Assembly (NCBI RefSeq): GCF_009914755.1
Contig: NC_060926.1
From: the human T2T-CHM13v2.0 reference genome, Homo sapiens
DNA: 64,000 nt
Strand: one strand, 5' to 3'
The notes beneath the pieces are model-generated. The model was given only the letters and a program-made list of their open reading frames with translations, was not told where the DNA came from and searched no databases. Each line of letters begins with the position of its first letter. Within the stretch, counting starts at the first letter, position 1. A program made the position numbers and the translations under genes. Of this stretch, positions 1-40,290 are shown piece after piece.

Positions 1-222
1 AGGCTCCGCCCCCGGCGGTTCACGCCATTCTCCTGCCTCAGCCTCCCGAGTAGCCGGGACTACAGGCGCCCGCCACCTCGCCCAGCTAATTTTTTGTATT
101 TTTAGTAGAGACGGGGTTTCACCGTGTTAGCCAGGATGGTCTCGATCTCCTGACCTCGTGATCCACCCGCCTCGGCCTCCCAAAGTGCTGGGATTACAGG
201 CGTGAGCCACCGTGCCCGGCCC
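1..222 (-). mobile_element. AluY-like SINE (cut by window start)
   Basis: Reverse-complement Alu, CpG-rich, ends cgtgcccggcc. Confidence 0.95.
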
Positions 223-32522: not shown

Positions 32523-33098
32523 ACATTGACCTTTTGCAACCTGAATCCGGTCCGCCCCCTCCTCATCCGCGGTCCGCTTGGGCCTTCAGCTTCTCTTGTG
32601 GAGCGTCTGCGGCTCTTTTTATTGAAACATTAGAGAAAAGTAGATTCAAACCCATGATCAAAACAGTCACCACGAAAGACAAACCCTGCTCAGCCCGTGT
32701 TGTACAAAATGAAAAGGTCAGCCCTCTCCCGGGGCACAGGGTCCGGACAGCTCGGGGCCACCCTGCCAGGCTGTGCAGCTCTGGCTGGGGGCTTTTTTCC
32801 GGCTGTGTTAGCCCTGCTGTTGGAAACCAAGTGGACTGTCCTGCAGCCCAGACAAGCCCAGTGGCCTTTGTGCTTTTAATTGTGATAAATGTGCCTGCTT
32901 TAGAAAATGTTTAATTATGTTGGAAGCAACTTAAACTGTTGGATGCCTACGGCTCTCTCAGAAGTTTTGGTGAAAGTGGCTTTGGCCCTGACTTTGTGGT
33001 AGCGTGTGTGGGTTTGTGAGTGGAACCTTCAGCTTTAGGTTGGAAACGGTGGCTGTGGAGAGCTGGACTTTTGGCTGTGGAGGTCACGTCCCTGCCCA

Positions 33099-33150
33099 AT
33101 GTGGTGGGTGCCTCCGAGTCCCTACGGTTGTCTTCCCTGCGCCCTGCCAG
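33099..33150 (+). CDS. COLEC11: COLEC11 alternative first exon, coding part (MWWVPPSPYGCLPCALP-G)
   Basis: 52 nt, phase-1 donor CAG|GTCAGT compatible with the collagen exon at 40219; matches a recalled isoform N-terminus. Confidence 0.7.
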
Positions 33151-36875: not shown

Positions 36876-38771
36876 AACCAGTTTTTAAAAATCAGATTAG
36901 AGACAGGCAGACGGATGCAGGTGGAGGTTGGTCAGAAGCTATCATAACAAACTTGTCCTTACTGCTTTATCTTTAGCAGGAGAGGAGACGAGGGTGAGTA
37001 GTCATGCTGGTTAGTGAGTCTCGCTCTGAGGTTTTGAAGCCTGAGCAAGGCGCGGTAAAGACACACTGGCGTGCCAGCACATCCCAGCTTGGACATGTCA
37101 CTTGATTCTCGTAGCTGTGTCTTCACCTCTAGAGTGGACATAGTGCCCGCCCCATGTAGGGGGAGAGGTGAAATTATTATGCAAATAAGTGAATGCCGTG
37201 TACAAACTCCAGGAGCTTTCTTAAGCGGTATGAGAAGAGCTGGCAGACCTGCTTAGTGTTAATTCTTTACGAGTACTGATGGAGCACCTGCCTTCTTCCT
37301 GGTGCTCTGGGGGACCGAGGGTTGGGTGAGATGGAGCTGTGTCTTCTCAGAGCCTTCAGCCAGTGGGAGAAAGAGCAGACTGCTGTCATGTAGGCGGTGT
37401 GAAATGCTTTATGAAGGAAACATTCTTCCGCCCTCATCTCAGCCACAATCACTGTTGGCCTGGACCGTGGCATGGGTGGTCAGGTTATCCCCATGAGCTC
37501 CAGGCATGAAGTCCCTGGGCTGCCTACTGCCTCGGGCTCGTGGCTCGCTCTGCCCAACCACCTGGCTTCCCGTCATCCCCTCCAGCCCTTCCCCCTTGTC
37601 TGTGCACCTGCTGACCCTGTCCTCAGAACACTTCTTACTCTGTGCCTGGCTACCCCTGCTCAGCAGCTTAGCCTGAGAACCACCCCTCAGAGGGGCTTTT
37701 CGGATCTTGCCGTCTAAATTATGGCTCCTTTGTTGAGGTTATTGCCTCATTTTATTCTTGCGTCCGGTGTTGCTAATGAGAATTCTTATGTCCATCTGAT
37801 TCTCATTCACAGGTATGCAGTCTTTAAACCTGTTTTTCCCTCTTGGGTAGCTGACAGCATTTTCTCTTTATTCTTGGTGTTCTGCGATATTGCTCTGACA
37901 TGTCTGAGTTACTTTTCTCTGATTTTCCCCGTGTGGTTCTCCGCAGGCCCTTTCACAGAGTTCTTTCATGGCTTTCCTTAGCACTGGGAAATCGCGGCTA
38001 CTAAATCTTCGCAGCCACGAAGGCTTTGTTCCTCTCTTTCCGGAATTGCTGTCAGAGCGACATTGGCATTTGTGAGTTTTTCCTTCAACTCTCAACTTCG
38101 TAACTTCAAAACAAACAAAGCCTGCATTTCTTATTAGTGCTGCCCTGTGAACAATGCTTCCTCCTCACCGCTGGCTCCACGAGGCCTCTTCATCCTGGGC
38201 CACCGGGGACTCGCCTTTCTGCGGAGTGGCTCCCGCACAGCGTCTCTGCTCGGCTCTTTCCGCTGCAGTGTGCTGTTGTTCCCGGACTGGCCTCTCCCAT
38301 GTTATGAGGACCTCCATTCACCGATTGCACAGTCAGCGTCCGGCTGCTCCACTGTTCCGTCTTCTCTGTTCTTTCTTCTGCACGATGCTGGTGCCCCTGA
38401 AACCTCTGGGGATTCTTAATGCTGAGTTTATCTTGTTAGTGGATATTTCTTGCTAAACTGTCAATACTTCTCTTTTCTTCTTACAAGATAAGAAAGCAAA
38501 CTTGAGAACTACTTGGAGCCTCAGAGCAGCATGTGGGTGTTGATCGTGGGTCAGCCCAGGGGCAGCCCACAGGCTTTTCAGTAGGTGGCCCTGCGGGGCT
38601 GGGGCTGTGGCACGGGGATGATGTGGGGATGGGCCTGCCACCATCGCTGTGCTTTTCTCTTTGTTACTTGGATTTAAATGGAAAGTCCCCTCCGTGAGGC
38701 CAGATAATCAGCTTTGGGGATTTTGTGGAGGGATCTGTAATCTCAACTGAGCCTCTCTCCAAGACAAGGTG

Positions 38772-38987
38772 TGTGGGCCACAACGTGTGTGGGCGGCAAG
38801 CCGTCCAGGTGCCGAGGCAAGAGACCGAGGGCACGAGCTGGTCCAGTATGATAAAATATATAAAACAACAAGAGTTATACTATATATGCTCTCTCTATAT
38901 ATAGGGTTGTTTTGTATATTTTATCATACTGGAACAGCTCGTGCCCTCGGTCTCTTGCCTCGGCACCTGGATGGCTGGCTGCCCACA
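38772..38987. mobile_element. Palindromic element made of two inverted LTR13-like (ERVK) 5' ends
   Basis: 82-bp arms 38788-38869 and 38906-38987 (77/82 identical), TG...CA ends, AAGGTG on both flanks. Confidence 0.8.
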
Positions 38988-39077
38988 AAGGTGCAAATGG
39001 AGAGTTATAGAGAAGTAAAGTTTACGTGAACGCTGGCACAATTGTGCAGAGAGGGAAGGTGAACTTGTAGCATATCA

Positions 39078-39193
39078 GCGCACACACGCGCACACATACA
39101 CGTGCACACCTATGCACATGCGGACACACGCACCCACATGCACACACGCACCCACCCACACGCATGCACACATGCACACACATGCACACACAC
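39078..39193. repeat. Degenerate (CA)n/(GCAC)n microsatellite
   Basis: Visible alternating purine-pyrimidine tract. Confidence 0.9.
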
Positions 39194-40218: not shown

Positions 40219-40290
40219 GGGATGCGGGAGAGAAGGGAGACAAAGGCGCCCCCGGACGGCCTGGAAGAGTCGGCCCCACGGGAGAAAAAG
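40219..40290 (+). CDS. COLEC11: COLEC11 exon 3, collagen Gly-X-Y x 8
   Basis: ccacAG|(G)[23 protein letters not shown](G)|GTACCT, 72 nt, phase 1-1. Confidence 0.96.

What the first reader, a model, noticed from the sequence alone, without database searches (positions are those of the whole stretch)
38766..38993. MITE-like palindrome made of two inverted retroviral LTR 5' ends with a perfect 6-bp TSD
Seen: 82-bp inverted arms (38788-38869 and 38906-38987, 5 mismatches) around a 36-bp AT-rich spacer. A mini-palindrome TGTGG-G-CCACA (38772-38782) plus acgtg precedes them. The whole unit starts TGTGGG, ends CCCACA, and is flanked by identical AAGGTG (38766-38771, 38988-38993). Recalled: the arm TGTGGGCGGCAAGCC..CAGGTGCCGAGGCAAGAGAC is the start of LTR13 (ERVK), and ERVK integrases make 6-bp TSDs at TG...CA ends. 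A normal solo LTR has different U3 and U5 ends. Inference: a U3-U3 foldback DNA integrated as such, possibly one of an overlooked non-autonomous family; alternatively a solo LTR rearranged in place. It would form a long hairpin in COLEC11 pre-mRNA or a DNA cruciform.
Basis: partly seen in the sequence, partly recalled or inferred. Interest (0 to 1): 0.8.

Follow-up and report, generated by a model that had tools for sequence, protein, structure and literature searches.

The report
Integrated snap-back retroviral LTR palindrome
A 200-base hairpin-forming insert in a COLEC11 intron consists of two inverted copies of the start of an ancient HERV-K-type LTR, seemingly pasted in whole as a fold-back by-product of reverse transcription, and two similar inserts lie elsewhere in the genome.

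Summary
There are 82-nt inverted arms with 5 mismatches, a 36-nt spacer and AAGGTG on both sides.

The arms are the first bases of a roughly 1-kb LTR. That LTR has TG...CA ends, 6-bp target-site duplications, a polypurine tract upstream and a tRNA-Lys primer site downstream. It is the sister of an LTR13A named in print near BIK, so it belongs to the LTR13/HML-4 group.

This exact unit has no other copy, so it is not a MITE family.

Two independent loci share the architecture: U3 base 1 at both outer ends, a long arm, a turn-back and a 6-bp duplication.
- chr11: 305 bp, GGAAAC on both sides (6 of 6); the turn lies in a natural inverted repeat of U3.
- chr17: a whole LTR, then 2 nt, then the first 11 nt of the primer site, then the turn-back. 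That is plus-strand strong-stop DNA.

Best reading: nascent plus-strand DNA snapped back or switched strands, ran off at U3 base 1, and was integrated through two U3 ends.

Arm divergence is 5-7%, against about 4.8% for proviral LTR pairs, so the insert dates from the family's active period.

The parts
38764..38779 (+). First unit of a 16-bp tandem duplication of the left junction. It holds the perfect left copy of the target 6-mer AAGGTG (38766-38771), followed by the first 8 nt of the element with one change.
   Evidence: Direct repeat D2, 88% identical; sequence.
38780..38787 (+). Flank part of the second junction unit. AACGTG (38782-38787) directly abuts the element and matches the right-hand AAGGTG at 5 of 6.
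38788..38887 (+). Long arm: LTR13-group LTR (U3) positions 1 to about 100, in + orientation.
   Evidence: 28 of 28 other loci align from base 1 to base 98-100 and have unrelated upstream flanks. 17 of 18 matches to LTR positions 83-100 of L042.
38888..38905 (.). 18 nt of TC/TA-rich filler at the turn; origin unresolved.
   Evidence: No significant match to 5 full LTRs. A gapped extension of the right arm into it gains only about 3 score points.
38906..38987 (-). Short arm: LTR positions 82 to 1, inverted. It ends exactly at U3 base 1.
   Evidence: 5 differences in 82 against the long arm. 72-78 of 82 identical to each of 28 family copies.
38988..38993 (+). Right copy of the 6-bp target-site duplication, AAGGTG.
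   Evidence: It is a direct repeat of the left 6-mer; a host fold-back copying the flank would have given the inverted form.

Best explanation
The element is a dead-end by-product of reverse transcription of an HML-4 (LTR13-group, HERV-K-type) retrovirus that was nevertheless integrated.

Proposed steps:
1. Plus-strand DNA started at the polypurine tract, which defines U3 base 1.
2. It stopped after about 100 nt.
3. Its 3' end then primed on a plus strand, either itself (snap-back) or a sibling strand, and copied back to that strand's 5' end. This created a second, inverted U3 base-1 terminus.
4. Once double-stranded, the molecule had a U3 attachment end at each side.
5. The viral integrase inserted it in one concerted step, duplicating 6 bp of target (AAGGTG).

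Later changes: the left junction was tandemly duplicated (16 bp), the centre acquired or kept an 18-nt asymmetric filler, and the arms drifted apart by 5 substitutions.

What is shown: the anatomy, the family, the duplications and the recurrence at two other loci. What is inferred: the order of events inside the particle, and which polymerase made the second strand.

Today it is an inert intronic 82-bp-stem hairpin or cruciform. I have no evidence that it does anything.
For: 1. Family and polarity.
- All 28 other scored loci begin at the same base as the arm and have unrelated upstream DNA.
- Ten of 12 extended copies are 970-1007 nt; the other two are about 630 nt because of an internal deletion.
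- Flanking 6-mers: 8 of 12 perfect, 3 at 5 of 6, 1 at 4 of 6.
- A purine tract abuts the TGTGGG end of 3' LTRs.
- The 5' LTR of the chr4 provirus is followed by a site matching the complement of the tRNA-Lys(CTT) 3' end at 18 of 21 columns.

2. The insert came in as a unit.
- Both outer ends are U3 base 1.
- The flanking 6-mers are direct repeats.
- Both flanks are single-copy in the genome.

3. Recurrence.
- chr11:74966999-74967303 is LTR 1-206 on one strand joined to inverted 1-~100, flanked by GGAAAC/GGAAAC. The join lies inside a natural U3 inverted repeat: 10 nt exact in this copy, and 8-9 nt exact in 6 of 12 family copies.
- chr17:45012254-45013807 is a complete LTR13A, then TC, then 11 nt that match the tRNA-Lys primer site at 10 of 11, then inverted LTR 252-1 joined with 2 nt of microhomology. 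It is flanked by ATTATA/ATTATG. An LTR followed only by a primer-site tail is the defining content of plus-strand strong-stop DNA (established retrovirology).

4. Age.
- Arms differ by 5/82 (window), 6/118 (chr11) and about 17/250 (chr17).
- Two proviral LTR pairs differ by 47/988 and 22/463 substitutions.
- Arm-private singletons number 1 and 2 in 82 columns, against a family mean of 0.79 with range 0-3.
- The arms therefore became separate copies in the family's active period.
Against: - No orthologous primate locus could be read, so an empty site has not been seen.
- The window's centre does not show a clean turn. 18 nt are unexplained. The link to the natural 10-bp palindrome at LTR 93-102, exact in 14 of 28 copies, is only positional.
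- The left 6-mer directly next to the element is 5 of 6. The perfect copy depends on accepting the junction duplication.
- Minimum-energy folds of the free strands do not predict the chr11 priming stem (z = -0.48 and 0.17).
- A single snap-back hairpin has only one duplex end, so a further step is needed that leaves no trace in the sequence: a second plus strand, or second-strand synthesis.
- The census is incomplete. The BLAST scan (40 of 502 candidates scored) and the hairpin-model scan (150 of about 32,753 scored) both missed the chr11 locus.
Confidence: 0.75

Rival explanations
1. Two-donor integration plus end joining. Two separate short U3-end DNA fragments, about 100 bp and 82 bp, each supplied one end to a concerted integration. 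The host then joined their free inner ends, adding 18 nt of filler. No snap-back took place.
For: The window's centre has unexplained filler and no demonstrable priming stem. This reading gives the same outer ends and the same 6-bp duplication.
Against: At chr11 the join sits in an 18-nt natural complementarity with no filler. At chr17 the long arm runs on without a break through the primer-site tail into the inverted copy, joined with 2 nt of microhomology. Both fit priming better than joining of two independent fragments. This rival still agrees that the DNA was integrated through two U3 ends.
Confidence: 0.1
2. In-place rearrangement. An ordinary LTR13 solo LTR or provirus was inserted at AAGGTG. 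A later host replication template switch or fold-back repair replaced everything beyond LTR position ~100 with an inverted copy of positions 82-1.
For: Host snap-back at short inverted repeats after breaks is documented (PMC7999016, passages). The LTR has a 10-bp palindrome at 93-102. The normal 3' end...CCCTACA, shares 3 nt with the inverted 5' end, so a microhomology switch at the very terminus is conceivable.
Against: - The switch would have to land exactly on the last bases of the element and leave the right 6-mer intact, and this would have to happen at three loci.
- A simple fold-back would copy the left flank in inverted form, and that is not seen.
- Arm divergence equals that of proviral LTR pairs, so any such event was not late.
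- The chr17 break lies within the 18-nt primer site.
Confidence: 0.1
3. A MITE or other non-autonomous DNA transposon whose terminal inverted repeats happen to resemble an LTR end.
For: Small size, terminal inverted repeats and a flanking direct repeat.
Against: - The arms are 94-96% identical over 97-100 nt to the 5' ends of the closest ~1-kb LTR copies (90-96% across all 28), and those LTRs carry a polypurine tract and a primer site.
- No second copy of the unit was found.
- The flanks are unique.
- The chr11 and chr17 loci are not copies of it.
Confidence: 0.02
4. A hairpin RNA gene (microRNA precursor).
For: Rfam hits to long-hairpin plant microRNA models, the best being MIR841 at 95.8 bits, E = 6e-21. 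A very stable RNA fold.
Against: All hits are far below the gathering scores (95.8 against 200; 63.7 against 130) and come from plant families, so they reflect hairpin shape only. No microRNA or functional element is annotated here.
Confidence: 0.02

Closest known systems
Solo LTR of the LTR13/LTR13A group (HERV-K HML-4)
   Same: Sequence of the arms, TG...CA outer dinucleotides, 6-bp target duplication, and age class. In print, HML-4 = LTR13/LTR13A (PMC5142424, passages).
   Different: Only U3 positions 1-~100 are present. There is no R or U5. The right end is an inverted U3 start instead of the U5 end ...CCCTACA.
Plus-strand strong-stop DNA and the second strand transfer of retroviral reverse transcription (established textbook pathway)
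   Same: The long arms start at the base next to the polypurine tract. At chr17 the long arm is the LTR plus the start of the primer-binding site, as in that intermediate.
   Different: The 3' end landed on a plus strand within U3 instead of on the minus-strand primer site. At chr2 and chr11 synthesis had stopped after about 100 and 206 nt.
Self-priming of minus-strand strong-stop DNA at the TAR hairpin in HIV-1
   Same: A nascent strong-stop DNA folds back and primes on itself. I saw only the search listing and abstracts of PMC6088434 and PMC13185573.
   Different: That reaction concerns the minus strand and R, and as far as I recall it is described as a dead end in vitro. Here the strand is plus, the region is U3, and the product is integrated in the germ line.
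Twin-priming inversions of LINE-1 (recalled; not read here)
   Same: An inverted internal structure inside one insertion bounded by one target duplication, made during reverse transcription by a second priming event.
   Different: LINE-1 uses target-primed reverse transcription on the chromosome. Here the palindrome is made before integration, and both ends are integrase attachment ends.
MITEs and foldback transposons
   Same: Short, with terminal inverted repeats and a flanking direct repeat.
   Different: No amplification: this unit has a single copy. The arms are LTR ends, and the duplication length is that of the retroviral family.
Host foldback inversions / snap-back repair at double-strand breaks
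   Same: Priming at short inverted repeats gives inverted duplications (PMC7999016, passages).
   Different: Those events copy flanking host DNA and are not bounded by target duplications at element termini.

Membership tests
ERVK-type (class II, betaretrovirus-like) LTR, LTR13 group / HML-4 | The arms are homologous to the terminus of a dispersed ~1-kb LTR with TG...CA ends. | tested here: met
   28 of 28 loci start at the same base. Ten copies are 970-1007 nt and two are ~630 nt. The ends are TGTGGG...CCCTACA.
ERVK-type (class II, betaretrovirus-like) LTR, LTR13 group / HML-4 | 6-bp target-site duplication. | tested here: met
   Family copies: 8 of 12 perfect, 3 at 5 of 6, 1 at 4 of 6. Window: 6 of 6 through the duplicated junction and 5 of 6 for the adjacent 6-mer.
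ERVK-type (class II, betaretrovirus-like) LTR, LTR13 group / HML-4 | Primer-binding site for tRNA-Lys next to the 5' LTR. | tested here: met
   chr4 provirus: 18 of 21 columns against the complement of the TRK-CTT2-1/2-2 3' end plus CCA, and a lower score against TRK-TTT3-1.
ERVK-type (class II, betaretrovirus-like) LTR, LTR13 group / HML-4 | Carries the curated name LTR13 (Repbase/Dfam). | tested here: inconclusive
   No Dfam tool was available. The only family-related copy in the 110 kb round BIK is full length and 72-73% identical. Print names an LTR13A near BIK (PMC7360734, passages). The arms match that copy at 76% against 90-96% to their own family. Print pairs LTR13 with LTR13A as HML-4. 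One paper instead links them to HERVK9-int (PMC9320126, passage).
ERVK-type (class II, betaretrovirus-like) LTR, LTR13 group / HML-4 | A complete LTR: U3-R-U5 with different ends. | tested here: not met
   Only positions 1-~100 and the inverted 82-1 are present. It is a fragment pair, not an LTR.
MITE / non-autonomous DNA transposon | Many dispersed copies of the same short unit. | tested here: not met
   Only the window matched across the centre among 40 of 502 scored candidates and among 150 of ~32,753 scored with the hairpin model. These scans are partial.
MITE / non-autonomous DNA transposon | Terminal repeats belonging to a DNA transposon. | tested here: not met
   The arms are LTR 5' ends.
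Snap-back plus-strand integrant (the class proposed here) | U3 base 1 at both outer ends, facing outward. | tested here: met
   Window, chr11, chr17.
Snap-back plus-strand integrant (the class proposed here) | One family-length target duplication round the whole composite. | tested here: met
   AAGGTG 6 of 6, GGAAAC 6 of 6, ATTATA/ATTATG 5 of 6.
Snap-back plus-strand integrant (the class proposed here) | The turn lies at a self-complementary site or microhomology, or the long arm ends in the primer site. | tested here: inconclusive
   Met at chr11 (natural inverted repeat) and at chr17 (primer-site tail and 2-nt microhomology). In the window there is 18 nt of filler and only positional proximity to the 10-bp palindrome.
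Snap-back plus-strand integrant (the class proposed here) | An empty site, never an intact LTR, in species that lack it. | not testable with these tools
   No primate genomes were on hand.
Rfam microRNA precursor families | Score at or above the family gathering threshold. | tested here: not met
   Best hit 95.8 bits against 200 (MIR841). All 12 hits are below threshold.

The most novel reading that the evidence does not exclude
Retroviruses leave a so far uncatalogued class of integrants: double-stranded snap-back or strand-switched plus-strand DNAs capped by two U3 ends and inserted by integrase with a normal target duplication. Under this reading the three HML-4 fossils (chr2, chr11, chr17) are the visible part of a set that also exists in other ERV families and species. 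Repeat annotation hides such inserts as two opposed LTR fragments. They would seed long perfect hairpins, and so double-stranded RNA and cruciform sites, inside host genes.
Probability: 0.35. Interest if true: 0.75.

Novelty: new variant of a known kind. Interest (0 to 1): 0.6.

Why it matters
- These loci are germ-line fossils of a specific error of reverse transcription. They show which intermediate went wrong (nascent or complete plus-strand strong-stop DNA), where it turned (natural inverted repeats, microhomology), and that the product could still be integrated through two U3 ends.
- This gives a purely sequence-based way to study the fidelity of plus-strand transfer in extinct viruses.
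- It also gives a search rule: outward-facing LTR 5' ends sharing one target duplication. Repeat annotation currently reports such sites as unrelated fragments.
- For the host, each event creates an 80-250-bp near-perfect palindrome. Here it lies in a COLEC11 intron, and another lies within the span of HROB. Structures of this kind can form double-stranded RNA or stall replication. No such effect has been shown at these loci.

Tried and rejected
- Known RNA family: rejected. Only sub-threshold, shape-driven hits.
- DNA-transposon MITE: rejected.
- Right half of the spacer as degraded LTR 83-108: a gapped alignment gains only about 3 points, and short-word BLAST gives nothing significant. Left unresolved.
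- A perfect palindrome centred on the natural CTAGATCTAG at LTR 93-102: the position is compatible (centre of symmetry near position 100), but the sequence does not prove it.
- My early assumption that another palindromic copy would rank among the best BLAST candidates was wrong. chr11 was missed and by the hairpin-model search. It was found only by the gapped inverted motif.
- AT-rich motif scans gave background only: 194 hits against 133 for the control; 1012 against 1080 per strand; 250 against 237. In one search, 1 of the 14 places with at most 1 mismatch was LTR-like, and that was the window. Only 36 of about 236 two-mismatch places were listed.
- A candidate LTR pair at chr4:55.97 Mb, picked, proved unrelated.
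- The first BLAST round BIK was blank because the tool cut my 20-kb requests to 10 kb. The missing halves gave the hit.
- Minimum-energy folds do not show the chr11 priming stem.
- Literature: searches (listings and abstracts only) turned up no description of U3-U3 or snap-back plus-strand integrants. The library lacks most older subscription virology. I recall, unseen, a 1985 J Virol paper by Olsen and Swanstrom on defective retroviral DNA that may be relevant. Supplementary tables of the ERV papers were closed and might list these loci.
- I did not read the published dimorphic LTR13 site upstream of HLA-DQB1 (PMC8193847, passages) in the reference.
- I fetched no proviral interior and no envelope region on purpose, translated nothing and listed no reading frames.
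Full report
**1. The observation**

- The repeat finder reports inverted arms 38783-38869 and 38906-38992: 87 nt, 92% complementary, 36 nt apart.
- AAGGTG stands at 38766-38771 and at 38988-38993.
- The stretch folds far better than shuffles. As DNA it gives -104.1 kcal/mol, z = -22.4, with 0 of 200 shuffles as good. As RNA it gives -166.1 kcal/mol, z = -22.8.

One reinterpretation follows. 38764-38779 and 38780-38795 are a 16-nt direct repeat, 88% identical. Each unit holds 8 nt of flank plus the first 8 nt of the element. The element proper is 38788-38987 (200 bp). The 6-mer that touches it on the left is AACGTG, which matches AAGGTG at 5 of 6.

**2. What the arms are**

A search of the whole reference with the unit gave 502 first-look candidates, of which 40 were scored. 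Apart from the window itself, every scored locus matched query positions ~23-120 on one strand and the right arm on the other strand at the same place. These are single copies.
- In all 28 loci saved, the similarity starts at the same base as the arm, and the DNA upstream is unrelated. So 38788 is a true terminus of a dispersed repeat.
- Twelve copies were extended. Ten are 970-1007 nt and two are about 630 nt because of an internal deletion. All run from TGTGGG to ...CCCTACA, and pairwise identity is 84-92%.
- Flanking 6-mers are identical in 8 of 12, including the two ends of a chr4 provirus. They are 5 of 6 in 3 copies (one with a one-base offset) and 4 of 6 in 1 copy.
- A purine run abuts the TGTGGG end where the copy is a 3' LTR.
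- The 5' LTR of the chr4 provirus is followed, after 2 nt, by a site matching the complement of the 3' end (plus CCA) of two tRNA-Lys(CTT) genes at 18 of 21 columns. It scores worse against tRNA-Lys(TTT).

The arms are thus the U3 start of a HERV-K-type (class II) LTR.

**3. The name**

I had no Dfam or Repbase tool, so the name rests on print plus homology.
- Print equates HML-4 with Repbase LTR13/LTR13A, 545,702 bp in all (PMC5142424, passages). That total agrees in order of magnitude with the 300-580 candidates per query that I saw.
- Print places an LTR13A near BIK (PMC7360734, passages). In the 110 kb round BIK the only related copy is a full-length LTR at chr22:43,585,096-43,586,034, which is 72-73% identical to my family.
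- A query from that copy also hit chr6:27.06 Mb. Print lists an LTR13A inside an HML-10 provirus at 6p22.1.
- The window's long arm matches the BIK copy at 77 of 101 columns, against 90-96% identity to the 28 copies of its own family.

The arms therefore belong to the sister family of LTR13A, which is LTR13 by the printed pairing. One paper instead assigns LTR13/LTR13A to HERVK9-int (PMC9320126, passage). I did not resolve that conflict.

**4. Anatomy of the window element**

- The left copy is colinear with the LTR from position 1 to about 100, that is 38788-38887. It matches L042 positions 83-100 at 17 of 18.
- The right arm is positions 82-1, inverted.
- The 18 nt between them (38888-38905) are TC/TA-rich and match nothing significantly.
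- The right flank repeats the left target 6-mer directly. A host fold-back that copied the left flank would have produced its reverse complement.
- Both flanks are single-copy in the genome.
- No masked stretch of 100 bases or more and no functional element is listed over the element. Pieces of 100 and 82 bases might simply fall at or below that table's cut-off.

**5. Is it a family of copies?**

No. Nothing else matched across the centre. A covariance model of the hairpin found only the window among 150 scored of about 32,753 rough candidates. These scans are weak, as the next section shows.

**6. Two more loci of the same kind**

*chr11.* A gapped pattern was used: a 16-mer at LTR positions 51-66, a gap of 0-500, then its reverse complement, with at most 3 mismatches. 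It has 2 places in the genome, against 0 for the reversed control: the window and chr11:74967049-74967253.
- The chr11 element (L061:400-704, 305 bp) starts TGTGGG, ends CCCACA, and is flanked by GGAAAC on both sides, 6 of 6.
- Its arms are 108 nt, 95% complementary and 91 nt apart.
- Against four full LTRs it is positions 1-206 on the minus strand and 1-118..134 on the plus strand, overlapping by about 18 nt. There are 6 mismatches and 1 gap in 119 arm columns.
- The overlap exists because LTR positions ~101-118 and ~187-204 are a natural inverted repeat. It is 10 nt exact in this copy, and 8-9 nt exact in 6 of 12 family copies.
- A plus strand that stopped near position 204 could therefore prime on positions ~101-118 and copy back to base 1. 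That gives 206 + ~99 = 305 nt, as observed.

*chr17.* A query with the first 120 nt of the BIK LTR13A gave 308 candidates, 40 scored, and one opposite-strand pair on chr17. In L060:
- A complete LTR13A (positions 1-939) lies on the minus strand, interrupted by an Alu.
- Read on that strand, it is followed by TC and then 11 nt that match the tRNA-Lys(CTT) primer site at 10 of 11.
- Then, with 2 nt of microhomology, comes the reverse complement of LTR positions 252-1.
- Both outer ends are U3 base 1. The flanks are ATTATA and ATTATG, 5 of 6.
- The arms differ at about 17 of about 250 aligned positions, plus 7 gap columns.

An LTR that continues only into the start of the primer site is the content of plus-strand strong-stop DNA (established knowledge).

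A second motif variant and a chr11-arm query found no further locus. Gaps above 500 were not accepted. chr11 lies 9.5 kb downstream of NEU3, and chr17 lies within the span of HROB.

**7. Mechanism**

All three loci read as follows: U3 base 1 ... X, a turn, the reverse complement of Y ... 1, with one family-length target duplication round the whole.

| Locus | X | Y |
|---|---|---|
| chr2 (window) | ~100 | 82 |
| chr11 | 206 | ~100 |
| chr17 | LTR + 2 + 11 nt | 252 |

- Base 1 of U3 is set by the polypurine-tract primer.
- An inverted arm that ends exactly at base 1 is what run-off synthesis on the 5' end of a plus strand gives.
- I therefore infer that nascent (chr2, chr11) or complete (chr17) plus-strand DNA primed on a plus strand, either itself or a sibling. 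The product became fully double-stranded, most simply if two plus strands extend on each other. Integrase then joined its two U3 ends to the target.
- The anatomy is shown. The intraparticle steps are inference.
- A variant for the window alone cannot be excluded: two separate U3-end fragments, each giving one end, with host joining of the inner ends.
- An in-place rearrangement of a normal LTR would need a break exactly at the element's last base with the target 6-mer kept, three times over.

**8. Age**

Raw substitution differences are:
- Arms: 5/82 = 6.1% (window), 6/118 = 5.1% (chr11), about 6.7% (chr17).
- Two proviral LTR pairs of the family: 47/988 and 22/463, both 4.8%.
- Arm-private singletons number 1 and 2 in 82 columns, against a family mean of 0.79 with range 0-3.

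The arms thus separated in the same period as the family's proviral LTRs.
- At 2.2e-9 per site per year, the rate quoted in PMC4056453 (passage), my own arithmetic gives roughly 11-17 million years. With 5 events the Poisson range is about 4-32 million years.
- Print dates HML-4 to about 35 million years (PMC5142424, passage citing earlier work). It places LTR13A in the common ancestor of hominoids and Old World monkeys (PMC7360734, passage).
- I cannot reconcile the factor of two or three without orthologues.
- Both arms share a G at LTR position 63, where 28 of 28 copies have A. This is as expected if the arms were copied from one source.

**9. Function**

None is shown.
- The Rfam matches are shape-only and below threshold.
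- No annotation overlaps the element.
- The element lies in the COLEC11 intron between the exons at 32959-33150 and 40219-40290 (gene table). It would form an 82-bp stem in the pre-mRNA.
- A review states that spacers lower the tendency of palindromes to form hairpins (PMC7999016, passages). That fits the survival of a 36-nt asymmetric centre, but it is no proof.

**10. Novelty and limits**

- Eight literature searches (listings and abstracts only) gave no description of such integrants. The held library omits much older virology, and supplements were closed.
- The census is partial. Only turns within 500 nt whose motif is nearly intact could be scanned, and only 39-40 candidates were scored per BLAST query, so more loci may exist.
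- No primate orthologue was available.

I rate this as a new variant of a known kind: an aberrant retroviral integrant supported by three independent fossils.

Noticed in passing
L061:400-704 (G000:C11:74966999-74967303): A second LTR13-group palindrome of 305 bp: LTR 1-206 joined to inverted 1-~100. It has a perfect 6-bp duplication GGAAAC, and the turn lies in a natural inverted repeat of U3. It sits 9.5 kb downstream of NEU3.
   Followed up: yes
L060:501-2054 (G000:C17:45012254-45013807): An LTR13A composite inside the span of HROB: a whole LTR (carrying an Alu), then 2 nt, then 11 nt of the tRNA-Lys primer site, then inverted LTR 252-1. The flanks are ATTATA/ATTATG.
   Followed up: yes
window 38755-38761 and 38998-39004: CTCTCCA and TGGAGAG are a 7-nt inverted repeat, each lying 4 nt from the AAGGTG target copies. 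The pre-insertion target would therefore have been symmetric about the duplicated 6-mer. This may be chance, or it may reflect the weak palindromic preference reported for integration sites (PMC1905944, abstract in the listing only).
   Followed up: no
window 39080-39193: A degenerate CA/CG-rich microsatellite-like tract (GCACACAC... units) about 90 bp downstream of the element (family D1). Weak sub-threshold Rfam hits fall on it.
   Followed up: no
LTR positions 93-102 of family copies (e.g. L004:595-604): A perfect 10-bp palindrome, CTAGATCTAG, in 14 of 28 copies. It lies at about the point where the window's long arm stops being colinear with the LTR.
   Followed up: partly
L031 and L034 (chr16:96.02 Mb, chr12:111.79 Mb): Two LTR copies share the same ~370-bp internal deletion (LTR about 630 nt) and are 93% identical to each other. 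They may form a deletion subfamily.
   Followed up: no
G000:C16:2681370-2690742 (- strand): Two same-strand LTR 5' ends lie 9.25 kb apart and are 97% identical to the chr11 arm. This is probably a full-length provirus of the family. It was not fetched.
   Followed up: no
window 38428-38439 / 38480-38491: A small 12-nt inverted repeat, 92% complementary and 40 nt apart, upstream of the element. It is probably chance.
   Followed up: no
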